Of a stretch of DNA of 64,000 nucleotides, positions 10,161 to 62,770 are shown in pieces. The notes under the pieces are model-generated. The model saw only the letters and a list, made by a program, of their open reading frames with translations. It did no database searches and was not told the DNA's origin. The number at the start of each line of letters is the position of its first letter. Within the stretch, counting starts at the first letter, position 1. Position numbers and translations under genes: made by a program. The stretch comes from Caldilineales bacterium (GTDB taxonomy: Bacteria > Chloroflexota > Anaerolineae > J102): the NCBI GenBank assembly GCA_037443945.1, contig JBBINH010000015.1, positions 4,475 to 68,474 on the forward strand. The letters run 5' to 3'.

Positions 10161-10165
10161 GCCCC

Positions 10166-11086: not shown

Positions 11087-11095
11087 ATCCCTGCT

Positions 11096-12130: not shown

Positions 12131-12131
12131 G

Positions 12132-12971: not shown

Positions 12972-12973
12972 GG

Positions 12974-13864: not shown

Positions 13865-14561
13865 AGACGAGGACGAAAGGCCCGTTTGCCTCTACCGTGC
13901 CCGCGCTACTGCGACCATCAGGTCGGCCGGCGATCCCACCGATGCGGCCGCAGACGGGCGATCCGTTCCGGCGGCAGGAGGCCGGCGCCGCTGGTGTCGT
14001 CGCCGGTCTTGGCGCCGAGGGTAGCCTGCACCGGCAACGTGCTCGTTTCGGGAGGGTTTTTCCGGCTCGATGCGGCCGACATGGGAGATGACGCCACGCG
14101 AGAGGTGTCCAAGCCCGGCTTGACGCCGGGGGCGATGGGGATCGCCACGCGCGGCCAAACATGAGAATCGGCGCCGGGTGCAGGAGGTCCCACCCCGCAA
14201 GGCGGCGCCGAACGCAACCGGTTCACGCCTGGCCCGGCGCCGGGAACGGTTGCCGTCGCCACGCGCCCTACCTTGGGCTACGCGAACCACCAAACGGGCA
14301 AGCGGCGTCACGCGCAAGAGAACCCACCGCGCGTGGCGCCCCGATGGCAGAACATCGCGGCGCGGGCGTAACTGTCTACGTACCGACTGAGGTCGCCCGC
14401 CATAGGCCTTTGGCCCTTCGGTCGGCCTGTGCCGACCGGGTGCGTCGGCGCAGGCCGACGCCCGGCACAATGGCTCAGGAAAGCCGATTTGCAATCGGCG
14501 CACAAGGGCAGGCAGCCGCCGGGTAGGCAGTTACGCGCGGGCTAGGCCCACTACCCCAACC

Positions 14562-15956: not shown

Positions 15957-16616
15957 GCATCCTCCGGATAAGGCCAGAAACGAGCGCCGTCCACGACGAT
16001 CAGATAGGAGATGGCAAAGCCCAGCAGAAGCTCAAGGCCGGCTAAAAGGGCCACGGTGTTGACATCCGTGCGCAGGGCAGGAACGGCAAAATGGGCGGTG
16101 AGCACCCACAACGACAGGCCAAACCCCCAGCGCATGGGCCGATCCCCCAATCCCAGTCCCACCAGTCCGGCCAGGGCCAGAAAGGTGGCCAATTGTGCCA
16201 GGTCGGGGTCGAGATCGGGCAAGGCGACAACCGGTCGCTGGCTGTAAACCACCACCAGCAACAACAGCACCAGGGCCAGCCGCATCAGAGTCGAGGCATT
16301 CAAGCGCCAGCGGGGTAGCCACCACGGTCGCTTTTCTTGTTTGCGCTGGATGCTCTCCACCCGTCGCGCCGAGAGAAACCACATGACGCCCACGAGGCCC
16401 CCCACAATCCAGGGCAGCAAAGCCCATTCCGGCGGCAGCAGCCGCGTGAGCAAAATACCGACCAGCACGTGCACAAGCGCAAAAGCGGCCAGGGCAAAGC
16501 GCCAATCGCTGAATACCAGCATAAAAGCCACCAACAGCAGGCTAAGCCCTACGGCGCCTTCCTGGGCCAGCGGCGTCACACGCGCCAGAAATGTGTCCAA
16601 AGTCGGCACCGGCATG
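15953..16616 (-). CDS. Small polytopic membrane protein (middle gene of the antiporter-like trio)
   Basis: Internal ATG 'MPVPTLDTFLARV' placed a few nt after the upstream gene's stop. About 221 aa, hydrophobic. The remainder of the ORF-track extension overlaps the neighbouring gene. Confidence 0.4.
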
Positions 16617-16620
16617 GTCG

Positions 16621-18328
16621 CTACCCGCGCAACAACAGCCAAGCCAGAAGGATGACGAGGAGGACATAGCCAAACTGTCCGGCCCCGTCCACCAGATCGG
16701 CGCCGTAACCAAGGCCGATCACCAGATAGTGGCCCACCCGGCCCAGACCACGACTCAACCAGTTCAGGGTCGCTACGCGACCTACCGTCTCGCGCCAGCG
16801 CTGCAGACTGCCAAACCAACGTTCGTCATGGCGGGACAAGAGCCAGCCCATGCCTAACGGCAAGACCAGGGTCAACCACCCACCCCATCCTGCCTGAGCC
16901 GGCAGAGTCAGGGCGGAGCCCTGCCGAGAGATGCCGGTGGTCTCGACATCGGTACCGCCGAGAACGACGAGGATACCGGGATGGAGTGCGTAGGCCAGGG
17001 TCAGCCCTGCGGTCAGGATCAAGGCCCCAAGCCGGATGAGAAGAAGCTCGCGCCCACGCCACCGGACCGGTCCCCACGGTCGCAGTCCTGACCTCGGCGC
17101 GGATGGCATCGCCTGAGACGCCGATGACGGCATGGCGGTTGGGGCCATCGGCTCCGGGAGGGCAGCCTCTGCGAATTGACGCAGCAAAGTCGCCACCAGC
17201 AAGCTCTGTCCTACCAGCACGGCCAGCCAACCGAACACCCCTACAGGCACGGCGGCCAGCCGTGCCAGAGTGAGGGTAGGCGCAAAGCCGGGCGTGAAGG
17301 GTATCCCGCCGAGAACGGCCACGGCCAGGCCCAGGGGCCAACGCCACCCCATATGCCGACGCAACCAGTGGCCCAACCACCACAAGGCCGTGCCCAGACC
17401 CAGGGTAAGCACGAGCAGCAAGGCCTGCGAGGGCTCCAACCCCATCACAAGCATGGCCCAGGTGGCACGGTTGACCCCAAGCAGCGTCATGCTCAGACCT
17501 TCACGGCGACAGGCCCACGCGGCCAACGCACTGCCCAAAAGGGCCATGGCGCCCAGGGGGACCCACAACTGACTGGCCAGCAGCGAAAGGTCCAGTCGCC
17601 TCAGCAAGGCCAGAATCGCCAGGGTCGGCACTAGATGACCTGCGGTCAGACGGGCCGTCGCCGTTGTTGTGGTGGCCGCGATCCCGCTCAGCCAGAGATG
17701 GAAGGGATAGGTCGCCAACGGGATGGCGGCAGCCACGATCACCAGCCATTGCGCCTGGGCATTGAGCACCGCTGTGGCCAGGGGCATTTCTAGGCTGCGA
17801 CCGCCGTTGAACAAAGGCGCCGCCATCATGGCAAGACCGGAAAACATCGCCCAGGCCCATACCCGGCCGGCACCGGGAGCGCCGATGACCAGACCCATCA
17901 GCATCCCTAGCGCCGTCCAGACCGGCAGCAGCGTCAGCCAGTTCCCGGCCATGAGCACCAGAAGGGCTGCCCCTACCAGCAGCAACGCCCAGGCCCGCGG
18001 ATCCGCAAAACCGGGGCGAACTTCCCAGCCCGGTGCCACCAGGAGGACCGGCAACAGAAGCAGGATGACGAGACCGACCACCCAGGCCTCTCCCGGCAGC
18101 TTGAGTCGCAGCACGGTAGGCAAGCTCAACGGTGCCGACCAGCTCCAGAAGAGTTGGGCGCGGTCCAATGTACCACGCAAGACCAACCAATCCAGCAAGG
18201 TCAGCCCGGCGATACCTACCGGCAATAAAGGCCATCGCCGGACGTGCCTGCCGCCGGCCACAAGCAAAAGGGCACCGGCAACGAGGAGGAAGACCGGCCC
18301 CAGGGGCGAAGTCCATACGAAAGTCACG
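16621..18328 (-). CDS. Large polytopic membrane protein, NuoL/MrpA-like (divergent)
   Basis: About 570 aa. 'YPFHLWLSGIAATTTTATARLTAG' is a degenerate version of the NuoL/MrpD 'FHxWLPDA...SAL...G' motif. GTG start at 18328 ('VTFVWTSPLG'). Confidence 0.45.
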
Positions 18329-30619: not shown

Positions 30620-31069
30620 ATGCTCCGTCGTCTTCTGCTCTTTTTCCTGTTCCTGGGCGTAACCGCGCCCGTTTTTGCTCAGGGCGACGACCCTAGAGAG
30701 CAATTGTTCAAAGAGCTGTGGTGCCCCATTTGCAACGGCATTCGTCTGGATGTCTGTGAGCAGCAGGTCTGCGAACAGATGCGCGCGCTGATCGACCAGG
30801 AACTGGCGGCCGGTAAGACGCCTGAACAGATCAAAGCCCAGTTTATCGATCTTTACGGCCCGGTTGTCCTGGGCGAGCCTCCGCGTGAGGGTTTCAACTT
30901 GATCGCCTGGATTGTGCCCGTGGTCTTGCTGATAGGAGGCCTGGCGACGGCCGTGCTTATCTCGCAACGCCACAAGCTGCGGGCGATCCCGCTCGCGGCA
31001 TCATCTGCCCCATCGGATGCTGCCGATCCGTATCTTGCCCGTGTCGATCGCGAGTTAGCCGATGAATGA
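30620..31069 (+). CDS. ccmH: Cytochrome c-type biogenesis protein CcmH/NrfF family
   Basis: Signal peptide, then 'LWCPICNG' (the CcmH LRCxxC-type redox motif), then a C-terminal TM anchor. Confidence 0.7.
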   Translation: MLRRLLLFFLFLGVTAPVFAQGDDPREQLFKELWCPICNGIRLDVCEQQVCEQMRALIDQELAAGKTPEQIKAQFIDLYGPVVLGEPPREGFNLIAWIVPVVLLIGGLATAVLISQRHKLRAIPLAASSAPSDAADPYLARVDRELADE

Positions 31070-31643
31070 CTCTGTCGTATCCCCTAATGCTCCTGCCCGT
31101 CGCCTTCGTCCAGGGGGGTTGCTCCTGGTGATAGGCATTGCGGTCATCGGGCTGATTTTCGTGGCCGTGTTCTATTACGGTGTCCTCAATCCACCCAGCC
31201 AGCGGGTAGGTTCGGGACCGGCGCCCGATTTTACCTTTACAACCTACGCCTTCGGCCTCAGCCCTTATGATGGCCAGACCTTTCGTCTGTCCGACTTTCG
31301 CGGTCAGCCGGTGGTTCTCAATTTCTGGGCGAGTTGGTGTGGGCCTTGCCGCGATGAACAGCCCCATCTGGAGGCGGCCTGGCGTCAGTATCAGGGTCGG
31401 GTCATGGTCATCGGCCTGGATTATCTGGACCAGGAGCCCAATGCTCGCGCTTACCTGACCGAATTCGGTGTCACCTACCCGAACGGCCCCGATCGAGGTA
31501 GCCGCGCTTACACGGCGTATCGCGTGCAGGGCGTACCGGAGACGTTCTTCATCGACGCCCAGGGTTTTGTCCGGGGCTACTACGTCGGCCCCATCACGGC
31601 GGCCGAGCTCGAACAACGTATCCAGGAACTGCTATCGCCATAA
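31062..31643 (+). CDS. Thiol:disulfide interchange protein (CcmG/ResA/TlpA family, thioredoxin fold)
   Basis: N-terminal TM plus 'LNFWASWCGPCRDE' (WCxxC thioredoxin active site). Overlaps the ccmH stop. Confidence 0.8.
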   Translation: MNDSVVSPNAPARRLRPGGLLLVIGIAVIGLIFVAVFYYGVLNPPSQRVGSGPAPDFTFTTYAFGLSPYDGQTFRLSDFRGQPVVLNFWASWCGPCRDEQPHLEAAWRQYQGRVMVIGLDYLDQEPNARAYLTEFGVTYPNGPDRGSRAYTAYRVQGVPETFFIDAQGFVRGYYVGPITAAELEQRIQELLSP

Positions 31644-31696
31644 GCACCCGGCGACAAGCCCGGTTATCTCTGCTTCTTACCCCCGGTACCCTTCCT

Positions 31697-33751
31697 ATGA
31701 TTGATATCGGTTACATTGCCCTCTTGTTCGCCTGCCTCACCGCCGCCTACGGCATCGTGGCCGGCTTCCTGGGTGGCCTCCGCCGCAACGCCGCTCTGGC
31801 CGCCAGCGGCCGCAATGCCCTCTTCGCAACGTCCGGGTTGGTCATGGTGGCCTCGATTGCCCTGTGGTACCTGTTGCTGACCAACGACATGTCGGTCGAA
31901 TACGTGTCCAGCCACAGCGAGCGCAATCTGCCTCTGTTCTATCGCTTTTCGGCCATGTGGGGCGGTCAAGCCGGTTCGCTCCTGTTCTGGGGGCTAATCC
32001 TGGCCGTGTACAGCCTCGTTTTTGTGGCCGTGGAGTGGAAACGACAGCCCCGACGAGGTCCTTATATCGTCGGGGTTTTGCTCATCGTCCAGCTCTTCTT
32101 CCTCCTCATCACGGTTTTTGCCGCCAATCCCTTCAACCGGCTGTGGCTCATGCCCGATGGCACGACCCACGGTGCCGTCTTCCGACCTCGAAACGCTGCC
32201 CTTTTCGTCCCCGCCGACGGCAACGGGTTGAATCCGCTGCTGCAGAACTACTGGATGGTCGTCCATCCCATCTTCCTGTACCTGGGCTACGTAGGGCTCA
32301 CTCTGCCGATGGCCCTGGCCGTGGCCGGGCTTCTGGCGGGTGATCTCGACAACCGATGGGTCAAACAGGTGCGGGTCTGGCTTCTTATCCCTTGGCTCTT
32401 CCTGGGCATCGGTATCCTCATGGGCAGTCAGTGGGCCTATATCGAACTCGGATGGGGTGGTTTTTGGGCCTGGGACCCGGTCGAGAACGCGTCCTTCATT
32501 CCCTGGTTGACGGCCACGGCCTTTCTCCACAGCATCATGATTCAGCAACAGCGGGGCATGCTGAAGGTGTGGAATGTCGTGCTGGCGTTTCTCAGCTTCT
32601 GGCTGGTGATCATCGGCACCTTCATCACCCGCAGCGGCATTATCGACTCGGTCCATGCCTTTGCTCTTTCCAACATCGGGCCCCTTTTCCTCAGCTTCAT
32701 CGTCTTCAGCTTTGCCGGCTTTTTGGCCTTGTTGTGGTGGCGCTTGCCCCTGCTGCAATCGGAGGCCGAGTTGGATTCGTTCTTCAGCCGCGAATCGGCT
32801 TTTCTGTACGTCAACGTCCTCTTTGTCGTGGCCGCGCTCGCCACTCTGTTCGGCACGATTTTCCCCATCATCTCGGAGGCGATTACGAAGACGAAAATTG
32901 CGGTCAGCGCGCCTTATTTCAACAAGGTCGATGGCCCCATTTTTCTGGTCCTTCTCGCCCTCATGGGCATCGGCCCCTTGCTGGGCTGGCGGCGCACTTC
33001 GCCGGAGATGCTGCGTCGCAATCTGACGGTGCCCATTGCGTTTGCCGTTGCCGTTGTTGTCCTCTTGGCGATGATGGTCACGCGACGATGGGTGCCGCTC
33101 CTGAGCTGGGGGATGAGCGCGCTGGCCCTGGGCGCCATTTTCTGGGAGTACTACCGAGGTGCGCGTGCCCGTCATAAAGCCACCGGCGAAGCCTGGCCTG
33201 TGGCCTTGTGGCAGGTCATGGTGCGCAATCAACGGCGGTACGGCGGTTACATCGTCCATCTCGGCGTTATCTTTATCGCCGTAGCCGTCACCGGTGCCAC
33301 CAGCTTCCAGTTCAACCTCAAACAGAGCCTGCGCCTGAACGAAAGCGCCAACCTGGCCGGCTACACCTTCACCTTCACCGGGCTCGAACAGGAGCGGGCC
33401 TCCAATCATAGCTCGGTGATCGCCCATGTGCTCATCGAGAAAGACGGCCAGGTCATCGGCACCCTCAAGCCACGCATGAACTTTTACGACGCCGTTCGCG
33501 GTCGCGAGATGGGACCGACCACCGAGGTGGGCCTCCACACCACGCCGCGCGAGGATGTGTATGTCGTGTTCAACGGCTGGGAGGAAAACGGCGAACTGGC
33601 CGCCTTTGAGTTTTTCGTCAATCCGCTCATGTTGTGGATGTGGATCGGTGGTCTGGTGATGATGGCAGGCACCCTTTTCGCCCTCTGGCCTGTGAGCGTC
33701 CAGACGACGCGGCGTCTGCCTGTTCCCGCTCCCCAACCCGTCTCGCCCTGA
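31697..33751 (+). CDS. ccmF: Cytochrome c-type biogenesis heme lyase CcmF/NrfE family
   Basis: 684-aa polytopic protein. WWD-domain signature 'MWGGQAGSLLFWGL' plus conserved His-containing TM helices. Confidence 0.9.
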   Translation: MIDIGYIALLFACLTAAYGIVAGFLGGLRRNAALAASGRNALFATSGLVMVASIALWYLLLTNDMSVEYVSSHSERNLPLFYRFSAMWGGQAGSLLFWGLILAVYSLVFVAVEWKRQPRRGPYIVGVLLIVQLFFLLITVFAANPFNRLWLMPDGTTHGAVFRPRNAALFVPADGNGLNPLLQNYWMVVHPIFLYLGYVGLTLPMALAVAGLLAGDLDNRWVKQVRVWLLIPWLFLGIGILMGSQWAYIELGWGGFWAWDPVENASFIPWLTATAFLHSIMIQQQRGMLKVWNVVLAFLSFWLVIIGTFITRSGIIDSVHAFALSNIGPLFLSFIVFSFAGFLALLWWRLPLLQSEAELDSFFSRESAFLYVNVLFVVAALATLFGTIFPIISEAITKTKIAVSAPYFNKVDGPIFLVLLALMGIGPLLGWRRTSPEMLRRNLTVPIAFAVAVVVLLAMMVTRRWVPLLSWGMSALALGAIFWEYYRGARARHKATGEAWPVALWQVMVRNQRRYGGYIVHLGVIFIAVAVTGATSFQFNLKQSLRLNESANLAGYTFTFTGLEQERASNHSSVIAHVLIEKDGQVIGTLKPRMNFYDAVRGREMGPTTEVGLHTTPREDVYVVFNGWEENGELAAFEFFVNPLMLWMWIGGLVMMAGTLFALWPVSVQTTRRLPVPAPQPVSP

Positions 33752-33760
33752 GCACGGCCT

Positions 33761-34291
33761 ATGTGGATCGTCGTTGCCTTGTTACTCTTGTTGGCGGCAG
33801 GCCTGGTCATTCTGTGGCCCTATCTGCGACCGCGCGCCACGGCGTTGACGGCGGCCGAGGCTGTGGAACTTGACCCGCGGCTGGCCGAGCTATACGAGCA
33901 GCGCGAGATGCTGTACAAGGCCATTCGCGATGCCCGGTTTGACCTGGAAATGGGCAAACTGTCTCCGGCCGACTACGAACAGCAGGAAGCCAAGTTGAAA
34001 TGGCAGGCGGCGGCCGTGCTGCGCGCCATTGATGAGCTGGAACAGACCCTGTTTTCGCCTCAACTCGATGCGCGTCTGGAAGCCGAGATCGCGGCCGTGC
34101 GGGCGGCTGCTCTTGAGTCCGCCACCGAGGAGGCGATCCCCGTTCGCGAGCATAACGGCGGCGCCATCGCTGCCAAGACGCCGGTCACGGCAGCCGTTGG
34201 GGATCGCTTTTGTGGCTATTGCGGCCATAAACTGCGGCCGGGGGACCGTTTTTGTGGGCGATGTGGCCGGGCCGTCCGGCGCGAGATGTAA
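33761..34291 (+). CDS. Membrane-anchored coiled-coil protein with C-terminal double zinc-ribbon
   Basis: N-terminal TM, helical middle, and 'CGYCGHKL...CGRCG' zinc-ribbon. Lies 10 nt after ccmF and may be a CcmH/CcmI-like accessory. Confidence 0.45.
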   Translation: MWIVVALLLLLAAGLVILWPYLRPRATALTAAEAVELDPRLAELYEQREMLYKAIRDARFDLEMGKLSPADYEQQEAKLKWQAAAVLRAIDELEQTLFSPQLDARLEAEIAAVRAAALESATEEAIPVREHNGGAIAAKTPVTAAVGDRFCGYCGHKLRPGDRFCGRCGRAVRREM

Positions 34292-34433
34292 GGCGAAAGA
34301 CGGTTCAGGCTTACCCTAAGAACAGCGCGCATGTCCTGGGCAAGACCGTCGCCTGGCCTGGGACCTATGGGCATCGGGGAGAGAGCGAAGAAGACTCGGT
34401 TCCGGAGTGTGTTGGCGCAAGAGCGGCAGGCAT

Positions 34434-34473
34434 AACGTTCTAACGTTCAAACGTTCTAACGTTCTAACGTTCT
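34434..34473 (+). repeat. Five tandem copies of an 8-bp unit (TAACGTTC/AAACGTTC), each with an AACGTT palindrome
   Basis: 'taacgttc taacgttc aaacgttc taacgttc taacgttc' read directly. It sits about 80 bp upstream of the FGE-like gene start. Confidence 0.9.
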
Positions 34474-34551
34474 CACCAACAGAAGATAGAACCGAGTCGC
34501 GAAGAATGGACGGCACCGCCGGCGATGGTGATAATGGCATAATCTCCCATC

Positions 34552-35403
34552 ATGGCCCGTCGTCCTACGCATCGCCTTATCTTCATCCCGGCCGGACCGT
34601 TCATTTACGGGCCGGAAGTCGTCTACGAACGCCATGCCGGCACGCGGCCGCTGCGCCCGCGGCAGACGTTATGGCTACCGGCCTTCTCCATTCAGGCCTA
34701 CCCGGTGACCTATGCCGAATGGAAGGCCTTTTTGGACGCCACCGGCTATGCCTGGGAAGGGCGTTGGTGGGCCATTCGCCGCCGCGGTTGGCGGCGATGG
34801 TGGCGGCGTTTTGCTCCGGTGGACACGTACCCGCCGGATATGGCAAACTATCCTATCGTGGATGTGTCCCAAGCCGACGCCCTTGCCTATGCCGCCTGGC
34901 TGAGTGAGCAACACGGTCTGGCCTATACCCTGCCGACCGAGGAGCAATGGGAGAAGGCTGCCCGTGGCACCGACGGACGCACCTATCCCTGGGGCGAAGC
35001 GCCGCCACGGCCCGAACTCATGCATTTGCCGGCCATCCATACCCTGGGCCTCGACTATTTCCTCTACAACCTCTGCCGCAAACCGACCATCGAGCGCGCC
35101 CGCAGCGGCTGGTACTGGCGTATCGGCACGCCTGTGCCCGTGGGTAGCATCCCGGAGAATCGGTCACCCTACGGTTGTCTGGACATGGCCGGCAATGTCT
35201 GGGAATGGACTCTCAGCCCGTATCACCCGGACGATCCCCGTTTTCATGTCGTCAAAGGCGGATCGTGGGGTTATAGCCCCCATCATACTGCCTGTTACGT
35301 GCGCTCGGCCTGCTCCATCACCATCCCCAGCGCCGTCTATCGCGCCCAGGGGACCGGTTTTCGCCTGGTGTGCAACGACCCGCTCCCTCCACCCCCGCCA
35401 TGA
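34552..35403 (+). CDS. Formylglycine-generating enzyme (SUMF1/EgtB/PvdO) family protein
   Basis: FGE-sulfatase fold signatures 'YPIVDVSQADALAYAAWL', 'RLPTEEQWEKAARG', 'GNVWEWT' and 'RVVKGGSW'. Confidence 0.8.
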   Translation: MARRPTHRLIFIPAGPFIYGPEVVYERHAGTRPLRPRQTLWLPAFSIQAYPVTYAEWKAFLDATGYAWEGRWWAIRRRGWRRWWRRFAPVDTYPPDMANYPIVDVSQADALAYAAWLSEQHGLAYTLPTEEQWEKAARGTDGRTYPWGEAPPRPELMHLPAIHTLGLDYFLYNLCRKPTIERARSGWYWRIGTPVPVGSIPENRSPYGCLDMAGNVWEWTLSPYHPDDPRFHVVKGGSWGYSPHHTACYVRSACSITIPSAVYRAQGTGFRLVCNDPLPPPPP

Positions 35404-36839
35404 CCGCCGATGCCCGTGCGATGGGCCGCAGCCTGTCGCTGATCAGCCTGAATAAGTTGGTCCAACTCCTCGGCGGCGTCCTCTGGGCCGCCATCATCCC
35501 CCGCTGGTTGGGACCCGAAGTCTACGGCCGCTTTGCCCTGGCCATGTCCATTTCGTTGCTCCTGTGGTGGGTGGGTGACTTCGGCGGATTGGAGGTGTTC
35601 GGCCGTTTTCTGCCGGGGCTGGCCGAGCGCGATCCGGGCGCAGCCCGCCGGCTGTTCGGGCAGATGTTCCTGCTGCGTTGTCCGGTGGGCCTGAGCCTGG
35701 TGCCCTTTATGCTCATCGTCGGGCCCTTGATCGCGCCCTGGCTGGCGGGCTGGCCGGCAGCGCTGGTAGGCCTTGCGGCAGGCTTACACATCATCTCGTG
35801 GACGAGCTATCACACCCTTTACGCCCGTAAAGAAATGGGCAAATGGGCCGTGGAGCTCTCGTGGCGGTTGATCACGCAAGTGCCCCTTGTCCTGCTCCTG
35901 GGTCGATGGGGACTGACGGCGCAGATGGCGGCCTACACCCTGAACGAGTTGATCTATCTGCTGCTAGGGCTGTGGTGGACCCGAAACGACTTCAGCCGCG
36001 CCGGGCTGCGACCGGACCGGCGTTTCTTGCGGCCTTATCTGGCCGTAGGGCTGGGTTTTTGGGTCACCAATGTCGGCCTGATCGTGCTCTTTCGCGCCGG
36101 CACCACCCTGGTGCAGCTCTTCACCCGTGACGCGGCCGAGGTCTCCTATTACGACCTGGCCCTGGTGGTCTTTTTCCTGATCTACACCATTGTCGATCAG
36201 CTTATCCGCGCCTTTCTGCCCATGGTCAGCACCTTCAAAGAGGAAGGACAAGACGAACGGGTGGGCACCTGGTTGCAGATCGTAGCGCAGTGGAGCGCCG
36301 CTTTGGGGATCCTGTTCGTGGTGGTTGTGCACTACACGGCCGCCTGGATCATGCCCTTCATCCTGGGCGTCGCCTATAGCCGATCGGCCGCCGTGCTGCA
36401 GGTGATGCTGCTGGCCTTGCCGGCCCTGGCCCTGGTCAGCGTGGGCACGGTGGCAACGGCCGTGCGTGCCAGCGCCCGGGCCAAACTGATTGCCATCCTC
36501 GGCGGCATCGTGGCTTTCGGCGGCAGCAGCCCCTGGCTCATTGCCCGGTTCCAGGCCATCGGCGCTGCCTGGGCCCTGGCCGTAGGCCTGGTGGTCTATG
36601 CCGTCGTCTTATTTGCCTTCATCCGTCATGACCTGCGGCTGCGTTGGTCGGCGTTGCTGGGCCTGATGGCCTTAGCACTGCCGTTGCTGGCCCTGCGTCC
36701 GCTCATCGGCGAACGGTTCGGGCTGGCCCTCACCCTCAGTCTCCTGGCTACGGTCGGGTATGTCGGCCTGGCTTTGATCCTGCGCCTGCTTTCACCGGCT
36801 CCCCTGCGGCTTGTGCCGCGCTTGCTGTTCTCTCGTTGA
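35400..36839 (+). CDS. MOP-superfamily polysaccharide/oligosaccharide flippase-like membrane protein (Wzx/MurJ-like)
   Basis: About 480 aa with roughly 14 TM helices. Start ATG overlaps the FGE stop (ATGA). Confidence 0.7.
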   Translation: MTADARAMGRSLSLISLNKLVQLLGGVLWAAIIPRWLGPEVYGRFALAMSISLLLWWVGDFGGLEVFGRFLPGLAERDPGAARRLFGQMFLLRCPVGLSLVPFMLIVGPLIAPWLAGWPAALVGLAAGLHIISWTSYHTLYARKEMGKWAVELSWRLITQVPLVLLLGRWGLTAQMAAYTLNELIYLLLGLWWTRNDFSRAGLRPDRRFLRPYLAVGLGFWVTNVGLIVLFRAGTTLVQLFTRDAAEVSYYDLALVVFFLIYTIVDQLIRAFLPMVSTFKEEGQDERVGTWLQIVAQWSAALGILFVVVVHYTAAWIMPFILGVAYSRSAAVLQVMLLALPALALVSVGTVATAVRASARAKLIAILGGIVAFGGSSPWLIARFQAIGAAWALAVGLVVYAVVLFAFIRHDLRLRWSALLGLMALALPLLALRPLIGERFGLALTLSLLATVGYVGLALILRLLSPAPLRLVPRLLFSR

Positions 36840-36842
36840 AAC

Positions 36843-37175
36843 GTGCGCCTGTCGGCGCGTTGTATCCCGTTACCCCGTTTCCCGAATCTTGGCACCATGC
36901 TGAGCCTGAGCGATCGTCTTCGTCCTGCCGAACATACGGCCTCCGAAACCACAGAAGGCCAAACCATCATCATCAACTTGCAAACCGGTACCTTGTTTTC
37001 CCTCAATACCACCGGCACGTTCATCTGGCAACGACTGGACGGCCAGACCACCCTGAACGAAGTGGCCGCCGCCCTGGCCGCAGCCTTTGGCGTAGGCACC
37101 GAGGTCACAGGACCGGATGTGTTGGAGCTGGCCACGGCGCTCTTGCAGGAAGGTCTGGTCTGCAAAGTTCATTAG
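36843..37175 (+). CDS. PqqD-family protein (RiPP recognition element-like)
   Basis: 'EGQTIIINLQTGTLFSLNTTGTFIWQRLDGQTTLNEVAAALAAAFGVGTEVTGPDVLELATALLQEGLV' is a close pattern match to the PqqD/RRE consensus. Translated start is probably the internal ATG 36897. Confidence 0.75.
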   Translation: MRLSARCIPLPRFPNLGTMLSLSDRLRPAEHTASETTEGQTIIINLQTGTLFSLNTTGTFIWQRLDGQTTLNEVAAALAAAFGVGTEVTGPDVLELATALLQEGLVCKVH

Positions 37176-40047: not shown

Positions 40048-40905
40048 TCAATGGCGCTCCGAGCGTGCCATACGCTCTTCCAGCTTGCGTTGCAGCCATT
40101 CCGAGACAATGGTCAGGATCCAATAGATGGCCGCCGCCAACAGAAACATCTCCATGAACTTGCTGTCTTTGCGCGCCAGGCGATTGGCCCGGTAGGTAAT
40201 CTCCCAAATCCCCATCAGGGAGACCAATGTGGAATCCTTTTGCATGGAGATGAACTGGTTGCCGATGGCGGGGATGACGGTGCGGATGGCCTGGGGAAGC
40301 ACGATAAAACGCAGGGTCTGCCAACGACTCATCCCCAAAGCCGCGGCGGCCTGCCATTGCCCTGCCGAAACGGCCTGGATGCCGGCCCGGAAAATCTCCG
40401 TCATATAGGCCCCGTAGTTCAAACTGAGGGCGAGAATGCCCGACTGCAAGGCACTCAGGATGAACAGTTCGCCGATTTGTGGATAGCCGGCATTGGTTAC
40501 CTGTTTGCCTAGCTGAGGTAGTCCCAAATAGATGATGTAAATTTGCACCAATAGAGGTGTTCCGCGAATAAGTGAGATATAAAAGGAAGAAATACCAAAA
40601 GCGATTGAATTGCTCGAAAGTCGTCCTAAAGCCCCCAAAAGTCCCAAAATTGAGGCAAATGCAATAGAAGCCAGCGAGACACCGATAGTCACCAGAAGAC
40701 CCTGCACAACAAAACCGGCGTTGTTCAGCATGTAGGCCGGATCCAACTGCAGCTGCAACAGCATAAAACTCAACAGCGCCAATAGGAACAGAATCACCAA
40801 CCCCACTTTCATCTGTTGCACCCGCTTCCGGCGCTCTGCCTCACGCACCAGCTCGACGGCCTGAGCTGCATACACATCTCGCTGCGACATGGTACCGGCG
40901 CTCAC
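40048..40905 (-). CDS. Polar amino-acid ABC transporter permease (His/Glu/Gln/Arg/opine family)
   Basis: EAA-like loop region 'AAALGMSRWQTLRFIVLPQAIRTVIPAIGNQFI', typical of the HisM/GlnP family. Confidence 0.85.
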   Translation of the reverse strand: MSAGTMSQRDVYAAQAVELVREAERRKRVQQMKVGLVILFLLALLSFMLLQLQLDPAYMLNNAGFVVQGLLVTIGVSLASIAFASILGLLGALGRLSSNSIAFGISSFYISLIRGTPLLVQIYIIYLGLPQLGKQVTNAGYPQIGELFILSALQSGILALSLNYGAYMTEIFRAGIQAVSAGQWQAAAALGMSRWQTLRFIVLPQAIRTVIPAIGNQFISMQKDSTLVSLMGIWEITYRANRLARKDSKFMEMFLLAAAIYWILTIVSEWLQRKLEERMARSERH

Positions 40906-41014
40906 GACAGTCCCTCACCGTTGCAAAAAGCGATACAAAGGCAAGAAAGTGACGACCGGCGTCCTGCCGGGGCCGATACTCAAAGCCCCGGCAGGACATC
41001 GCCGCAGACTCACC

Positions 41015-41950
41015 TCACTGTTTGAGCATATTCAAGTCGAACGCCGCCGCTGCGCTGGCCAGGTCGATCCCGTAGTACTTTTCCGACAGCCTCTTGAGGG
41101 TCCCGTCGGCGTGCATGGCGCGGATAATCTCGTTCACTTTAGCCTGGAAGCTCCTGGTATCCAGGCTGCTGCCCTTATCGAAGGCAGCGGCAAGGTACTC
41201 GAAATAGACCGGTTCGCCGAGCTGTTTGATGGGCAATCCATCTTTGATGGCACCGAGCCCGGTGGGCTGAGCCGTCAGGACGGCATCCAACCGCACCCCA
41301 TCGCCCAAGGCCAGGTCCTGGAGGGCGGGGAGATCGGTTTCGTAGCCGACGAATTGGGCATCCTTGATGACAAAGTTGATGGTCTCGCCGGGGATGGAGA
41401 GGGTGCCGTCGATGTAGAACTCATAGGTGCAGCCGGTGCAGCCCCCCACCCGCTTGCCCGAGAGATCGGCAGGCGAGGTGTAGGTCGTGTTATCCTTGTG
41501 GACGAAGAGGGCTGCGGGGGTCGTGTAGTAGGGCTGGGAGAAGAAAAGCTTCTCCATCCGTTCCGGCGTGATCGTCATCGACCCAACGCTGATATCCCAG
41601 CGGTCGGCCCAGTTCCCACCGGTGATCAGCGTCCAATCCGGCGTGACAAAACACGGTTCCACGCCCAGCCGCTTGGCGATCTCGACGGCGGTATCGATGT
41701 CGAAGCCGGTAAACTCGCCGGCCGTGCGCTCTTCGGCGCCGCATTTGGTTTGTTCAGCCCGCCTGGCATCCGGCACGAGTTCCGACTGGGGCGGGTAGGC
41801 GGGATCGGTCGAGATGCGGAGGGTACCGCGTGCCATGATGGCGGCCAGGAGATCCGAAGGGGTAGGTGTAGGCGCCGGTGCAGACGGCGTACAGGCAACC
41901 AGAACCATAGCCAGCAAAGCCGGCAAGAGAAAGGCGAGGCGAACGTTCAT
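41015..41950 (-). CDS. Amino-acid ABC transporter substrate-binding lipoprotein (SBP family 3)
   Basis: Lipobox 'LVACT', periplasmic binding fold, RBS 'aaaaaggaga'. Confidence 0.8.
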   Translation of the reverse strand: MNVRLAFLLPALLAMVLVACTPSAPAPTPTPSDLLAAIMARGTLRISTDPAYPPQSELVPDARRAEQTKCGAEERTAGEFTGFDIDTAVEIAKRLGVEPCFVTPDWTLITGGNWADRWDISVGSMTITPERMEKLFFSQPYYTTPAALFVHKDNTTYTSPADLSGKRVGGCTGCTYEFYIDGTLSIPGETINFVIKDAQFVGYETDLPALQDLALGDGVRLDAVLTAQPTGLGAIKDGLPIKQLGEPVYFEYLAAAFDKGSSLDTRSFQAKVNEIIRAMHADGTLKRLSEKYYGIDLASAAAAFDLNMLKQ

Positions 41951-42057
41951 CGGGCTATCTTCTCCTTTTTGATAACGAACAGAAAGGGGAACAACCGGAT
42001 AGGCGGTACAATACACCAATTGCGGTGATTGTTCAAGCTTTGTGCGGGCCAATGGGC

Positions 42058-58202: not shown

Positions 58203-59120
58203 TCAGGCTGCCCGCCGCCGTGAAGGAACCTCTTTCACCAAGGCCACCTCATCCATCGTCAGCGGTGGGTCGAGCTCCTCCTCGGCATTCGTATCGGCAT
58301 TGTCGGCACGTTTAGGGACCTTTGGCGACCTGTTGACATCCGAGTTCAAGCCAAGCTCGATCTCGGATTGGCCGTTGGGCGTGAGGCGGGTATTGATCTC
58401 CAAAGCGCCTGAGGGGGTGGGAATTTGCAGGGGCGGTGGCTGCAGACCTTCGACGACGGCCATCAGGTGGGTCTGCAGATGGGGCGGGTAATCGCGGATA
58501 AGCCGCAGGATTTGCTCCCATTTGCCGGTCAGACGCTGTATATGCACCCGGTCGGCGCGGGCGCGGTCAAACGCTTCGATCAGGGTCGGCGGTAGCGAAT
58601 CGAGGACCATCCAGCAGGGTTCCGCTTCATTGAGCACATAACCGAAGCGGGCCAGAACCCTCCCCAGATGACGGCGGATGTTGAGCATGAGGGCCTCGTT
58701 CTGCCGGGTCATCGTGAGGATATGGGACAACTGGGTGTAGAAATCGGCATCGGCGGGCACCGGATGGCGTCGCTCGTATTCCCTGACCATCTGGATGACC
58801 AGATGCTGAACGGCATCGTCCAGTTTGTCCTTCCGATCCTGCTCATTCCAGGAGGCCAGCTCGGCCAGACGGGCGAAATCCTGCCCTGCTGTGCGACGCA
58901 GGTCAAGGCTGGCATGAAAAGACAACCGCAGGGTGACAGGCACCCCACTTCCGGCAAAGGTTCGGATCAACACAATGAGCCTTGTCTGCCGCACATCGAG
59001 GATGGCGTGACATTCGTCCACGTGCGGCCATAGCCAGATCAGTCCCGGACCGGCGATGCGATGGAAGCGGCCCAGACGATAGATAACCGCTTCGTATCCT
59101 TCTTCCACTTTCAAGAACAT
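58203..59120 (-). CDS. SPFH/band-7 domain protein (soluble, no TM anchor)
   Basis: 'VEEGYEAVIYRLGRFHRIAGPGLIWLWPHVDECHAILDVRQTRL' fits the SPFH N-terminal consensus. Confidence 0.65.
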   Translation of the reverse strand: MFLKVEEGYEAVIYRLGRFHRIAGPGLIWLWPHVDECHAILDVRQTRLIVLIRTFAGSGVPVTLRLSFHASLDLRRTAGQDFARLAELASWNEQDRKDKLDDAVQHLVIQMVREYERRHPVPADADFYTQLSHILTMTRQNEALMLNIRRHLGRVLARFGYVLNEAEPCWMVLDSLPPTLIEAFDRARADRVHIQRLTGKWEQILRLIRDYPPHLQTHLMAVVEGLQPPPLQIPTPSGALEINTRLTPNGQSEIELGLNSDVNRSPKVPKRADNADTNAEEELDPPLTMDEVALVKEVPSRRRAA

Positions 59121-59124
59121 AGTG

Positions 59125-60120
59125 CTACAAATCCGAAAATTTTAGATAGTTTTCGAACAAAAGACTAAAAATCCGATCATTAGGCTCGAGTAAAAGACCG
59201 CGTCGACGTAGCAGAAAGAGCGCGGGGGCATCGCCGGTGCCGGGCGTTTGGCCGTGGGTCAACATCCAGAGTACCTGTTGTTCATGCCGATGGAGGGAGC
59301 GGAAGATGCGCTCACAGGCTTCGCGAATGGCCGGCTGAGCCAGGAGATCGCCGGTGGGGTTCCGAGAGGAAGGGGGATCGATCAGGTATTGCTCATGGAC
59401 CAACCTGAGCAACCTGGCATGCCCGCCGGCCAATTGGTAGATGAAACGCAGCGTGGAATTCGCCAGTGGCTGCGCCGCCTGAGCGTTGAGAAATTGCAAC
59501 ATGTGCCAGGCATCGGCCCGGTTATAAAGGCGCAGAACGAAGATGTGGGAGACAAACAACCGGTAAAATTTGCTCTCCTCGGTGAGCCGAATCGTGCGGC
59601 CCAGGCGATGGGGCAACCGATTGACAAACAGCATAAAAGCAAGGGCATCACGGTTTTCGTCCCGCAGGGTGCGGAGCTGCTCCAACAAGGCCAGCGGACC
59701 GCGGCGCAGGAGTTTATCGGCATCGTCGAAAACGAGAAGAAGCCGTTGATCGGGTTGGTGGCAAAAGGCGTTGGCCAGTTGACGGGTGATGAGATTATCG
59801 CGCGCGACCGGATCGCTGCTCAGGGGAATCACGTTACTCGGCGATAAGACCTTCTCCGTCTCACGACGCAGCAGGTGCCAAAAGTCCACCTGACCTCCGT
59901 TCCAATCATTGCAATCCACAAGCACCGTTTTCAGGACGATGGCCGTGCCATCGGGCGCAGACACACGACCATAATGTCGCATCAGACAATTGACCAGATT
60001 CGATTTACCGCTACCGGGAATACCGATAAAAACACAGGAAAGACCCCGCCGCGCATAATCGGTGATCAAGGCCAATTCATCCCGGCGATAATGGGGGGAA
60101 AAACGGGGAAAGGAGGACAT
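59125..60120 (-). CDS. P-loop NTPase (AAA/STAND-like)
   Basis: Walker A 'GIPGSGKSNL' and Walker B 'LLLVFDDADKL'. 331 aa. Lies 4 nt upstream of the SPFH gene. Confidence 0.7.
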   Translation of the reverse strand: MSSFPRFSPHYRRDELALITDYARRGLSCVFIGIPGSGKSNLVNCLMRHYGRVSAPDGTAIVLKTVLVDCNDWNGGQVDFWHLLRRETEKVLSPSNVIPLSSDPVARDNLITRQLANAFCHQPDQRLLLVFDDADKLLRRGPLALLEQLRTLRDENRDALAFMLFVNRLPHRLGRTIRLTEESKFYRLFVSHIFVLRLYNRADAWHMLQFLNAQAAQPLANSTLRFIYQLAGGHARLLRLVHEQYLIDPPSSRNPTGDLLAQPAIREACERIFRSLHRHEQQVLWMLTHGQTPGTGDAPALFLLRRRGLLLEPNDRIFSLLFENYLKFSDL

Positions 60121-60190
60121 AGGAAGTCCTCATCGTATCCGAGGGCTAAAAAACCGGCGTCAAAAAGTATAGACCGACTTTTTTCTGCCA

Positions 60191-62770
60191 TCAAGTTGCA
60201 GCGATACCGATCACGCGCTGCAAGCAGATATCGATCAAAGGCGTTGCCTCTGCCAACGCGTTGGGGAGATCGAGCACGGCCTGCAGTTTGCCCGAAGCAA
60301 AGGGTTCCACCTTCAACGGCAGGTCACGCAATCGGTCGGGGGAGATGGCCAGGGCCAACCGCATCTTGTCAGGGCGATCCACAGGCCGAAAGAACAAGGC
60401 CACAAGGCCGCCATCGGCGGCATGAACCTCACATCGTCGGCTCTGAATGTGGACATCCAGCGCCGGCCATCGTCGACGCACGTACTCGGCCATGGTCCAC
60501 AGCGGTTCGGCGGGTGTTTCATCCCTCTGCCGGGGGTCGGCGCCGAACAACAGGGCCGGTAGAGGTTCGGCGCCGTCCAGATAGGCTTCCAGCTCGTGCA
60601 ATAACCGCAAGGCCTCACCGTAGAGCAGAAGCGTATGTTCGAAGAATCGCACGCGTGCGGCCAGGAGCAAGAGACGAACGCTTGTCGCCAACCATAGGCG
60701 TGGCTTCCAGTATTCCGTATCGCGTAATCGACGGGCCTCCTGTTCGATTTGGCTAAAAATGGCCTGTTGGAAATATCGCGTTAGAGGACGCAAGAAAAGA
60801 TTCTTTTCTTCCACAGTTACTACATACGTATCACCACGCCGATGATGGCGAATCTTATCCAAGCTTATATAACCTGCCATTTCCGGATTACGAATATAAC
60901 GATATAAACATGCATCTTCTAATAGTATAGCATAATCATCGATATAATCGCCATTTTGGTTCATATGATCTAAATCAATAAAAAATACCTTTATTTTAGA
61001 ATTATCTGTTCTAGAGTCATCGATCATGATATTACGTGTATGACAGTCTCCGTGGACTAATCCTATTGTTGACGGCCGCAAAATACGAACATGTTTCTGC
61101 AAAACGCGCAAATAATGATTAAGAGAAGAATAACAAAAATCGTTATACTCTAATTTCTGTAATTCTACACGAAATTGTGATTTATTACAAATAAACATTA
61201 AAGCAGTATTTTCTACAGGACTTAAGTACAATCGAGATAAATGATCACCAGGTAGGTTATCACGACTCTTGCGAAAACTTGTACAATTATGCAATTTTCT
61301 AAGAGATTCTCCTAAAGCGACGATAATGTTTTCGAGTCTATTGCGATGACTCTGTGCCAAAGCAATGCGATCGATGTTCGCTAAAAAGGTCTCAAGGGTC
61401 TTTTTGTCCTTCAGATCCTCCATGATGAGATAACCCTGTCCCTCCTCGGTGGTCGAAAGCGCGATCGGAGGGTGGCCGTGGGTGGCAAACAAAGGGCGGA
61501 TCTCCGCCGGTAAGCGCCTGTATTCCTCTACGGCCCGACGGAGATCGGCGTAGCGTCCTCTCTTGACGATGATCTGCTGCGGTCGCGATTCGTAGACCAT
61601 GCCGGGATGCTCTTGACTGTAGCTCGGCAGGCGCACGAGAAACTCGACCTCAAAGACCTTTTCCGAACGCACCCCTCCACTGATGGCCTCAACCTGAAGG
61701 ATTTGGATCTGCAGTTGGCGGAGTAGGACCTCCTTCAATTCCTCCTTGAGTTTATGCTGAAGCGTATCGTAGGCGCGGCGATGGCTATCCTGATGCATCC
61801 GGAATAAGCGGCCGTAAATGGCCCGGTTGAGTTCAGAACCATGACGCGTCGCCAACAGACGCAAAACAAGGCAATGGAAGACGAAATCTTGGGTCGCTAA
61901 AGTACCGGATGCGCTGTACCCGCGATGCAGATGCATAATCGCTTCGGCAACCGTAGCCTCGGCATCGGGTTGGCCTTGAAAATGCTGGCAGAGCTGAATG
62001 GCGCAGTACAGAGGCTCGGAACCAAAGGCTGTCGTCTTTTGCACGACGGCAATAAGGCGATCCCGTACCTTTTGCAACGTATGCTCATCCTCGAGATACC
62101 CGTAGCGCTTCAAGATGTCGAAGGCATAGCTCAGCTCCTGCCAGGAGTGGAAAGGATCGGGCTTCTGGGAATGGTATTCCCAATCCTGCCAGGCCTTCCG
62201 GATGGCTTGCAGGGCGCGTTCGCAACGTTGACGTATCCCGCGAGACAGCGAGGTGGACTGGGCATGCCGATTGAGCCAGTAGAGGGTATCGAGATAGATG
62301 AGGGTCGCCAGATAGGGGCGCGGCAAATCAAGAAGGTCTTGACGCCATCGGCGGTCGAGGGTGTGGAAGTCCTCCCATAAATGTTCATCCTTGAAATGAT
62401 TGGTCCAGGCCAGGGTTTTGAAGCGGCTGGGGTTGAAACGAGGGGAGTTCTCCCACTCGAAATCACCCCGATCGGGGCTTTCGGAAACATTGACCAGCCA
62501 GGCCACGCCGTTTTGCAGAGGTTCCTGCAAGGGCGATGAAGGTCCCAACAGATGAAAAGCCTCCACAGCGTGACAGACATTGCGCAGCATTTTTTGGGGC
62601 TCGCGATCAACCCAGGCTCCACTTTCCGGATCCTGAGTGATGCAGAGGAAATCGATCACATACATGGCCAAGCTGGCATCTTGCTCCAGGGTAGAAGCGC
62701 CGCTTGCCTGGAAGGGATACATCTCCCAAAAGGCATGAAAATTGGGAGGGTAAAAGGTGGAAGTGCTCAT
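60191..62770 (-). CDS. Large multidomain protein with APH/protein-kinase-like catalytic core
   Basis: 859-aa continuous ORF. 'LVHGDCHTRNIMIDD' (HGDxxxxN catalytic loop) and 'FFIDLDHM' (DFG-equivalent IDLD). The N-terminal ~400 aa and C-terminal ~180 aa are unassigned. Confidence 0.7.
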   Translation of the reverse strand: MSTSTFYPPNFHAFWEMYPFQASGASTLEQDASLAMYVIDFLCITQDPESGAWVDREPQKMLRNVCHAVEAFHLLGPSSPLQEPLQNGVAWLVNVSESPDRGDFEWENSPRFNPSRFKTLAWTNHFKDEHLWEDFHTLDRRWRQDLLDLPRPYLATLIYLDTLYWLNRHAQSTSLSRGIRQRCERALQAIRKAWQDWEYHSQKPDPFHSWQELSYAFDILKRYGYLEDEHTLQKVRDRLIAVVQKTTAFGSEPLYCAIQLCQHFQGQPDAEATVAEAIMHLHRGYSASGTLATQDFVFHCLVLRLLATRHGSELNRAIYGRLFRMHQDSHRRAYDTLQHKLKEELKEVLLRQLQIQILQVEAISGGVRSEKVFEVEFLVRLPSYSQEHPGMVYESRPQQIIVKRGRYADLRRAVEEYRRLPAEIRPLFATHGHPPIALSTTEEGQGYLIMEDLKDKKTLETFLANIDRIALAQSHRNRLENIIVALGESLRKLHNCTSFRKSRDNLPGDHLSRLYLSPVENTALMFICNKSQFRVELQKLEYNDFCYSSLNHYLRVLQKHVRILRPSTIGLVHGDCHTRNIMIDDSRTDNSKIKVFFIDLDHMNQNGDYIDDYAILLEDACLYRYIRNPEMAGYISLDKIRHHRRGDTYVVTVEEKNLFLRPLTRYFQQAIFSQIEQEARRLRDTEYWKPRLWLATSVRLLLLAARVRFFEHTLLLYGEALRLLHELEAYLDGAEPLPALLFGADPRQRDETPAEPLWTMAEYVRRRWPALDVHIQSRRCEVHAADGGLVALFFRPVDRPDKMRLALAISPDRLRDLPLKVEPFASGKLQAVLDLPNALAEATPLIDICLQRVIGIAAT

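What the first reader, a model, noticed from the sequence alone, without database searches (positions are those of the whole stretch)
60840..61420. ~0.6 kb low-GC stretch embedded inside the high-GC kinase-like ORF, encoding its catalytic core
Within one uninterrupted 859-codon ORF, nucleotide composition drops from about two-thirds G+C to roughly one-third over ~580 bp. The affected codons are rich in Asn/Lys/Ile/Tyr/Phe. They encode exactly the conserved catalytic loop and metal-binding motifs ('HGDCHTRNIMIDD', 'FFIDLDHM'). This mosaic pattern suggests a recent in-frame domain replacement by recombination with a low-GC donor, or a segment subject to unusual mutational or selective pressure.
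Basis: seen in the sequence. Interest (0 to 1): 0.75.

Follow-up and report, generated by a model that had tools for sequence, protein, structure and literature searches.

The report
Old decaying low-GC patch in kinase gene
A 0.55-kb AT-rich patch really does sit inside a GC-rich kinase-like gene of an uncultured Chloroflexota bacterium, but it is an old, vertically inherited compositional relic that is slowly drifting back to host composition, not a recent domain swap or an assembly error, and its origin is still unexplained.

Summary
Inside the 859-codon ORF (60191-62770, minus strand), codons ~485-666 (window 60773-61318) have GC 0.33 and GC3 0.21. The gene's flanks have GC3 0.64-0.70 and the window averages GC 0.63 (z about -8, unique in 64 kb). 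The patch encodes the kinase C-lobe core, including HGDCHTRN and IDLD.

"Recent" is refuted. Four independent assemblies carry the patch. Orthologues 72-75% identical in protein have it at the same codons. Relatives at 56-59% carry shorter nested versions around codons 584-630. Relatives at 39% or less have none.

A foreign donor is unsupported. Island and flank protein trees are congruent, there is no excess protein divergence, and an exhaustive search of 1.84 billion representative proteins, phages and plasmids found nothing closer.

The patch is out of equilibrium. Polarised changes are 51 AT>GC against 18 GC>AT, while flanks show 80 against 93. Crown-ancestor GC3 was about 0.13. So it is decaying, not maintained.

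No promoter, RNA, repeat, alternative ORF or DGR signal was found.

Best reading: a relic of an old episode, either replacement from an unsampled very low-GC close homologue or in-situ AT-directed change. Origin unresolved.

The parts
60191..62770 (-). 859-aa protein with four regions: an N-terminal all-alpha domain (aa 11-332), an APH/choline-kinase-like kinase with N-lobe 354-450 and C-lobe 459-731, and a C-terminal alpha/beta domain (755-854).
   Evidence: ORF. Pfam APH scores 38.1 bits against a cut-off of 23.2. The AF2 model has mean pLDDT 82.8. Foldseek matches PsiK, choline kinase, FN3K and maltokinase, and the N-terminal domain weakly matches terpene cyclase MstE.
60773..61318 (-). Low-GC island, codons 485-666: GC 0.33 and GC3 0.21, with 26% of codons rare in the host. 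It encodes the kinase C-lobe core.
60881..61021 (-). Core of the island (codons 584-630), the part that is low in GC3 in all seven close lineages.
   Evidence: Nested best-fit segments are L066 584-630, L067 581-669, L072 539-647, and window clade 461/485 to 635/666.
61031..61054 (-). Catalytic loop HGDCHTRN (codons 573-580), the Brenner motif HxDxxxxN.
   Evidence: Sequence. H573, G574, D575, H577 and N580 are invariant in 35 sequences.
60962..60985 (-). Metal-binding segment FFIDLDHM (codons 596-603).
   Evidence: Sequence. D599 is invariant.
59125..60120 (-). Downstream operon gene encoding an AAA_22/AAA_16 (ORC/Cdc6-like) ATPase of 331 aa. It has no island.
58203..59120 (-). Downstream operon gene encoding an SPFH/Band-7 protein of 305 aa. 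It has no island apart from an ordinary AT-rich start region.

Best explanation
The island is a real, old, vertically inherited compositional relic inside a functional APH/choline-kinase-like gene of a Caldilineales-type Chloroflexota lineage.

Shown: it was already present, and more extreme (GC3 about 0.13), in the common ancestor of the window lineage and its 72-75% orthologues. Since then it has evolved under the same substitution regime as the rest of the gene, so it is slowly ameliorating towards host GC. It carries no detectable DNA- or RNA-level element.

Inferred origin: a stretch that spent a long time in a very AT-rich background replaced the resident C-lobe-coding segment in frame. 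The source would be a close homologue from the clade's own stem lineage, for example a copy on an unsampled AT-rich mobile replicon. Either further events or partial back-conversion then produced the nested extents seen in sister lineages.

Inferred consequence: the run of host-rare codons (TTA, ATA, AGA, ACA, TCT; 26% of island codons) probably slows translation of the catalytic core, but this is a side-effect and not a maintained function.
For: The island is real and not a chimera: four independent assemblies carry it.

It is shared at the same codons by L004, L005 and L070, with GC3 of 0.17-0.24 against 0.64-0.69 in their flanks. It is absent in 25 relatives at 39% identity or less.

Step-like borders fit as well as gradients: 2dLL is 2.6-4.9 with 2 degrees of freedom.

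All three codon positions and the amino-acid usage are shifted. FYMINK is 0.31 against about 0.20, and GARP is 0.18 against about 0.28, compared with high-GC relatives over the same region.

The differences from the outgroup are rich in transversions: outgroup G corresponds to island T 27 times and A 9 times. Codon choice is idiosyncratic, dominated by TTA, ATA, ACA and CGT. Both fit long evolution at low GC and not a transition-type mutational burst.

The flux is out of equilibrium. Polarised singletons in L004, L005 and L070 are 51 W>S against 18 S>W (third positions 30 against 9), while flanks show 80 against 93. Binomial p = 9e-5 and Fisher p = 1e-4. The changes are scattered along the island, and Fitch reconstruction gives a crown GC3 of 0.13 against 0.21-0.28 today.

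Fourfold-site identity within the clade is lower in the island (0.42-0.67) than in the flanks (0.68-0.86), so there is no sequence-specific constraint.

There is no promoter or terminator excess, no Rfam hit, no border repeats, no alternative ORF and no DGR template.
Against: No donor was found. The island peptide's best matches among 1.84 billion representatives are its own relatives: P0007 at 60%, P0006 at 58% and P0008 at 45%. Nothing turned up in IMG/VR, phages or plasmids. Every sampled family member lies in a Chloroflexota genome with locus GC of 0.46 or higher.

Island and flank trees are congruent. The island-to-flank protein distance ratio on the stem is 0.91, equal to that in lineages without an island. 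A donor would therefore have to be a very AT-rich sister of a GC-rich lineage.

Homologous recombination between versions with GC3 of 0.1 and 0.7 would lack identical runs, yet the junctions carry no indels. This point is an inference.

The nested islands of different extent in L072 and L066/L067 require more than one event, or partial reversal.
Confidence: 0.5

Rival explanations
1. In-situ episode. The resident GC-rich segment was driven to AT-richness in place, by a localised AT-directed mutational process or by a lapse of the GC-maintaining force, filtered by purifying selection on the kinase. It would have started at the core (codons about 584-630) and spread to different extents in different lineages. 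The process has since stopped, and the segment is drifting back.
For: The protein phylogeny is congruent and there is no excess divergence. There are no junction indels. No donor exists anywhere. The islands are nested around one core, from narrow and shallow to wide and deep. The T:A ratio at fourfold sites in the island (0.43:0.25) resembles that of the flanks (0.16:0.09).
Against: No known mechanism confines such a bias to 0.5 kb inside a gene.

By my estimate, it would need roughly a ten-fold acceleration of GC>AT change at synonymous sites on the stem.

The changes are rich in transversions (G>T 27 against G>A 9) and Ile is ATA-dominant, which is not what deamination produces.

A single burst is impossible, because third positions changed far more than first and second positions.

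Present-day per-site rates equal those of the flanks, so the process would have had to cease in every sampled lineage.
Confidence: 0.27
2. Maintained functional element. AT-richness or a rare-codon cluster in the catalytic core is selected, for example as a translational throttle for a potentially toxic kinase or as a nucleation site for an AT-binding silencer of this operon.
For: A low-GC3 core persists in seven lineages whose flank fourfold-site identity is only 0.45-0.50. GC3 in region B of the window clade and L072 (0.18-0.28) is lower than my rough neutral-amelioration expectation from a single origin at that depth (about 0.36-0.48). Host-rare codons make up 26% of the island.
Against: The flux is strongly unbalanced towards GC, 51 against 18, whereas a maintained feature should show balanced flux.

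Synonymous sites evolve faster in the island, not slower.

The amino-acid composition is shifted as well, so codon-level selection alone cannot explain it.

There is no conserved motif, promoter excess or RNA structure.

The extent differs three-fold between lineages.
Confidence: 0.15
3. Assembly or binning artefact: a chimeric join of reads from a low-GC organism.
For: None beyond the composition itself.
Against: The same gene occurs in four independent assemblies. Diverged orthologues from JGI, ENA, NCBI and Logan data carry the island at the same codons. The reading frame and the family-invariant residues run continuously through both junctions.
Confidence: 0.01

Closest known systems
Mosaic genes made by partial (intragenic) horizontal transfer, followed by amelioration. 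Examples are the pbp and penA mosaics; the amelioration concept is from Lawrence and Ochman (my own knowledge). Mosaic-gene detection is reviewed in PMC3241670 (listed; I did not read it).
   Same: An in-frame block with foreign-looking composition, step-like borders, and a directional drift back towards host composition.
   Different: Classical mosaics show phylogenetic incongruence, and their donors are 75-95% identical in DNA. Here the block's protein phylogeny matches the flanks, no donor is known, the compositional gap is extreme (GC3 about 0.13 against 0.7), and nested versions occur in sister lineages.
AT-rich islands in GC-rich genomes that are bound by xenogeneic silencers such as Lsr2, MvaT and H-NS (PMC6584129 and PMC8476142, abstracts listed).
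   Same: A short AT-rich stretch in a GC-rich genome, of the kind such proteins recognise, and which can misdirect RNA polymerase.
   Different: No silencer is known or tested in Chloroflexota. The island lies wholly inside a conserved catalytic domain and is losing AT-richness, not being maintained.
APH/choline-kinase-like small-molecule kinases (Pfam PF01636). The related TCAD9 kinase-like domain (PF19974) belongs to the NTP-dependent ternary conflict systems, and Kaur et al. 2020 (PMC7159879) mention active APH-superfamily kinases among their effectors.
   Same: The fold and all catalytic motifs. The gene sits in an operon with an NTPase.
   Different: The TCAD9 score is below the cut-off (20.6 against 40 bits). 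There are no vWA or MoxR partners; the partners are an AAA_22/AAA_16 ATPase and an SPFH protein. PADLOC gives no significant hit.
Variable regions of diversity-generating retroelements in conflict-system proteins of multicellular bacteria (10.1101/2023.09.22.558884, abstract listed).
   Same: Localised, targeted sequence change inside a gene from a lineage rich in conflict systems.
   Different: There is no template repeat and no reverse transcriptase in the 64 kb. The segment is conserved in protein, not hypervariable, and the change is a compositional shift, not adenine-specific.

Membership tests
APH / choline-kinase-like phosphotransferase (PF01636) | Pfam model score above the gathering threshold | tested here: met
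   38.1 bits against a cut-off of 23.2, covering aa 399-619.
APH / choline-kinase-like phosphotransferase (PF01636) | Catalytic loop HxDxxxxN, a downstream metal-binding Asp, and an N-lobe Lys | tested here: met
   H573, D575, N580, D599 and K403 are invariant in 35 relatives. K403 lies in N-lobe strand 398-406 of the model.
APH / choline-kinase-like phosphotransferase (PF01636) | Bilobal kinase fold similar to solved family members | tested here: met
   Foldseek probability is 1.00 to PsiK, choline kinase alpha, FN3K and maltokinase, with TM-scores (target-normalised) of 0.45-0.55.
TCAD9 / ternary vWA-MoxR conflict system | PF19974 score above the gathering threshold | tested here: not met
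   20.6 bits against a cut-off of 40. The precomputed hits in relatives are marked weak.
TCAD9 / ternary vWA-MoxR conflict system | Neighbouring vWA and MoxR-type AAA+ genes | tested here: not met
   The neighbours are an AAA_22/AAA_16 ATPase and an SPFH protein.
Mosaic gene by partial horizontal transfer | Compositional discontinuity with step-like borders | tested here: met
Mosaic gene by partial horizontal transfer | Phylogenetic incongruence between the segment and its flanks | tested here: not met
   NJ trees of the island and flank partitions give the same clades and the same sister group, with bootstrap support of 99-100. Distance ratios are equal.
Mosaic gene by partial horizontal transfer | Identifiable donor lineage | tested here: not met
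Mosaic gene by partial horizontal transfer | Amelioration towards host composition | tested here: met
   W>S 51 against S>W 18 in the island, and 80 against 93 in the flanks.
DGR variable region | Template repeat and reverse transcriptase nearby | tested here: not met
   There is no second copy and no RT-like ORF in the window.
Selected AT-rich or rare-codon regulatory element | Composition held at equilibrium, with balanced W>S and S>W flux | tested here: not met
Selected AT-rich or rare-codon regulatory element | Binding by a silencer, or a measurable effect on expression | not testable with these tools
   This needs ChIP, TSS mapping, ribosome profiling or recoding experiments.

The most novel reading that the evidence does not exclude
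A recurrent, locally targeted process repeatedly recodes the catalytic-core DNA of this Chloroflexota kinase towards extreme AT-richness. It would leave nested islands of different extent in at least three lineages, around one core at codons 584-630, without changing the protein's phylogenetic position. The process could be either a previously undescribed intragenic AT-directed mutational or repair mechanism, or episodic selection for an AT-rich or rare-codon throttle on a conflict-system effector.
Probability: 0.15. Interest if true: 0.8.

Novelty: new variant of a known kind. Interest (0 to 1): 0.5.

Why it matters
If the origin is a segmental transfer, this is an unusually clean natural case of an in-frame replacement across a roughly 0.6 gap in GC3. 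The phylogeny is intact and the amelioration clock is measurable, which makes it useful for calibrating amelioration rates and the limits of recombination between compositionally distant homologues.

If the origin is in situ, it would point to an unknown process able to shift the base composition of about 0.5 kb inside a gene.

Either way it is a warning for compositional HGT detectors. A strong compositional signal here comes with no phylogenetic signal.

On present evidence it has no demonstrated functional role, and it occurs in an uncharacterised operon of uncultured bacteria.

Tried and rejected
- Word-index protein search with the island peptide alone. It returned nothing, not even the parent protein, so this is a tool limitation and not evidence. 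It was replaced by the exhaustive HMMER search.
- Look-up of the window's exact protein. It failed because the window differs from P0001 by 3 residues.
- Metagenome scan. It returned only the already known L005 contig.
- Deaminase-type, transition-only hypermutation. Rejected, because outgroup G corresponds to island T more often than A, and because third positions changed far more than first and second positions.
- Gradient-shaped borders. Not significantly better than steps.
- A second low-GC dip at 59020-59170. It is the stop/start junction of the AAA and SPFH genes, about 100 nt long, and is an ordinary translation-initiation region.
- Testing whether residual G/C third positions are retained ancestral bases. 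Only about 10 usable fourfold sites, so inconclusive.
- Correlation of T-versus-A codon preference between host and island. Spearman 0.47, not significant.
- Polarising changes in L066, L067, L072 and the window branch. I judged these compositionally biased by the outgroups and did not rely on them.
- The promoter, terminator, Rfam, repeat, alternative-ORF and DGR searches were all negative.
Full report
**1. Observation**

The ORF at 60191-62770 on the minus strand is uninterrupted and 859 codons long. GC in 200-nt windows drops to 0.30-0.33 between about 60800 and 61300. The window averages 0.629. No other 300-nt window in the 64 kb goes below 0.45, and the island minimum is 0.297, about 8 SD below the rest.

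By codon position, the island (codons 481-655) has GC1/GC2/GC3 of 0.45/0.31/0.23. The rest of the gene has 0.62-0.71/0.40-0.44/0.66-0.70, and the neighbouring ClpC-like gene has GC3 of 0.79. A maximum-likelihood step scan on third positions places the island at codons 485-666, which is window 60773-61318. Its likelihood gain exceeds that of all 100 permutations.

Codons that are rare in the host (below 5 per 1000 in 25 large ORFs of the window) make up 26% of the island. They make up 5% of the flanks and 3.5% of host genes. TTA runs at 57 per 1000 against 2.2 per 1000.

The island encodes HGDCHTRN (codons 573-580) and IDLD (598-601). H573, G574, D575, H577, N580 and D599 are invariant in 35 relatives.

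**2. What the gene is**

Pfam gives APH above threshold and TCAD9 below threshold. An AlphaFold model (mean pLDDT 82.8) shows four parts: an N-terminal all-alpha domain, a bilobal kinase, and a C-terminal alpha/beta domain. Foldseek matches the kinase to small-molecule kinases such as PsiK, choline kinase, FN3K and maltokinase. The N-terminal domain matches a type II terpene cyclase weakly. The island covers most of the C-lobe, from helix 473-494 through strands 640-653.

The gene heads a three-gene operon with an AAA_22/AAA_16 ATPase and an SPFH/Band-7 protein. This operon is conserved down to relatives at 37% identity. PADLOC and NCBIfam give nothing significant. The family was found only in Chloroflexota, in Caldilineales, Ktedonobacterales and Anaerolineae, apart from one bin labelled Aminicenantes.

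**3. Not a chimera and not recent**

Three further assemblies carry the same gene with 7 nt differences.

| Relatives | Protein identity | Low-GC3 segment |
|---|---|---|
| L004, L005/6/7, L070 | 72-75% | Same codons as the window; GC3 0.17-0.24 inside, 0.64-0.69 outside |
| L072 | 59% | Codons 539-647, GC3 0.18 |
| L066, L067 | 56% | Codons 584-630 and 581-669, GC3 0.29 and 0.44 |
| 25 distant relatives | 39% or less | None at the kinase core |

The nested segments in L072, L066 and L067 are each significant by permutation. The feature therefore belongs to one subclade and is at least as old as that subclade's window-containing branch.

**4. No sign of a foreign protein segment**

- Amino-acid identity to the 56% relatives is as high in the island (45-69% by sub-segment) as in the flanks (54-57%).
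- The island-to-flank distance ratio between the island clade and the 56% clade is 0.91. Lineages without an island give 0.92-0.94.
- NJ trees of the two partitions give the same clades and the same sister group, with bootstrap support of 99-100.
- An exhaustive HMMER search with the island peptide against 1.84 billion representatives returned the protein's own relatives as best hits: 60%, 58% and 45% identity.
- IMG/VR, GenBank phages and PLSDB plasmids hold no relative.

**5. The island is decaying**

Fourfold-site identity within the island clade is 0.68-0.86 in the flanks but 0.42-0.67 in the island, so there is no sequence-level constraint.

I polarised singleton changes in L004, L005 and L070 against the other three members, which share the island's composition. 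This gives 51 AT>GC against 18 GC>AT in the island, and 30 against 9 at third positions. The flanks give 80 against 93. Binomial p is 9e-5 and Fisher p against the flanks is 1e-4. Both halves of the island behave alike, at 23:8 and 27:8.

Per-site rates resemble those of the flanks. From the counts, W>S is about 0.155 per W site in the island against 0.107 in the flanks, and S>W is about 0.10 against 0.086. The changes are scattered along the island. Fitch reconstruction gives a crown-ancestor GC3 of 0.13 (bounds 0.10-0.32), against 0.21-0.28 today. The island is therefore out of equilibrium and ameliorating under the host's ordinary regime.

**6. Nature of the past event**

A transition-only (deaminase-like) burst is rejected. 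Where the outgroup has G, the island has T 27 times and A 9 times. Third positions also changed far more than first and second positions, which needs many rounds of mutation and selection.

Amino-acid usage was dragged along: FYMINK is 0.31 against about 0.20, and GARP is 0.18 against about 0.28. The bias therefore acted on DNA and was not only a matter of codon choice. Codon choice is idiosyncratic, dominated by TTA, ATA, ACA and CGT with little AGA. Borders are adequately described by steps.

These traits fit a stretch that evolved for a long time at very low GC. Against that, no donor is known. The protein tree requires any donor to be a sister of this GC-rich lineage. Recombination between such compositionally distant homologues is mechanistically awkward, yet it left no junction indels. 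The nested extents also demand more than one event or a partial reversal.

An in-situ episode explains the congruence and the nesting, but it lacks any known mechanism and must have ceased in every sampled lineage.

From my rough calculation on the rates, the window clade's island cannot be much older than its crown unless amelioration is slowed. This is the main hint for either repeated events or weak selection.

**7. No present-day element**

- Promoter-like and terminator-like sites are at chance level.
- There is no Rfam match.
- There are no repeats at the borders.
- No ORF of 30 aa or more exists in any other frame.
- There is no template repeat or reverse transcriptase that would indicate a DGR.

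**8. Verdict**

| Reading | Weight |
|---|---|
| Old relic of a segmental replacement, now ameliorating | about 0.5 |
| Past in-situ AT-directed episode | about 0.27 |
| Maintained AT-rich or rare-codon element | about 0.15 |
| Artefact | about 0.01 |

The case is a curious variant of mosaic-gene evolution with an unresolved origin. I rate it of moderate interest.

Noticed in passing
window 59020-59170: A second, short (about 100 nt) low-GC dip at the stop/start junction of the AAA ATPase and SPFH genes. GC in 150-nt bins is 0.47 here and 0.36-0.43 in L004, L005, L068 and L072, and the dip is absent in L008. It looks like an ordinary AT-rich translation-initiation region of a translationally coupled gene.
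   Followed up: yes
window 60992-61006 (approximately codons 589-593): The window lineage has a 5-codon AT-rich insertion (SRTDNSKIK where the orthologues have SET-----K) between the catalytic loop and the IDLD motif. It is absent from all six close relatives.
   Followed up: partly
window 58203-62770; also L004, L005, L008, L010, L030, L066-L069 and L072: The three-gene operon (terpene-cyclase-like/kinase fusion, AAA_22/AAA_16 ATPase, SPFH protein) is conserved in Caldilineales-type Chloroflexota down to 37% identity and has no PADLOC assignment. Its function is unknown. The kinase evolves faster (75% identity) than its partners (80-82%).
   Followed up: partly
window 58203-62770, compared with the rest of the window: The whole operon is somewhat GC-poorer than neighbouring genes: GC3 is 0.64-0.71, against 0.79 for the adjacent ClpC-like gene. 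Its flank substitutions lean GC>AT (80 W>S against 93 S>W).
   Followed up: no
window 40366-40838: The second-lowest GC stretch of the window (minimum 0.45 in 300 nt), in a region with no ORF of 350 aa or more, just upstream of the ORF at 40889-42028 (+). It is probably an intergenic or promoter region.
   Followed up: no
window 10000-18000 and 31000-37000: Strong AT skew that switches sign (from -0.34 to +0.43 per kb) and appears to track gene orientation, consistent with the T>A preference seen at fourfold sites on the coding strand.
   Followed up: no
window 34433-34473: A tandem array of an 8-nt unit (TAACGTTC), 5.1 copies, 93% matches.
   Followed up: no
L005/L006, downstream of the operon: In the 75% orthologue's genome the ClpC-like neighbour is reduced to a 105-aa fragment (ClpB_D2-small) and is followed by an SMC gene. 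Synteny outside the three-gene operon is therefore not conserved.
   Followed up: no
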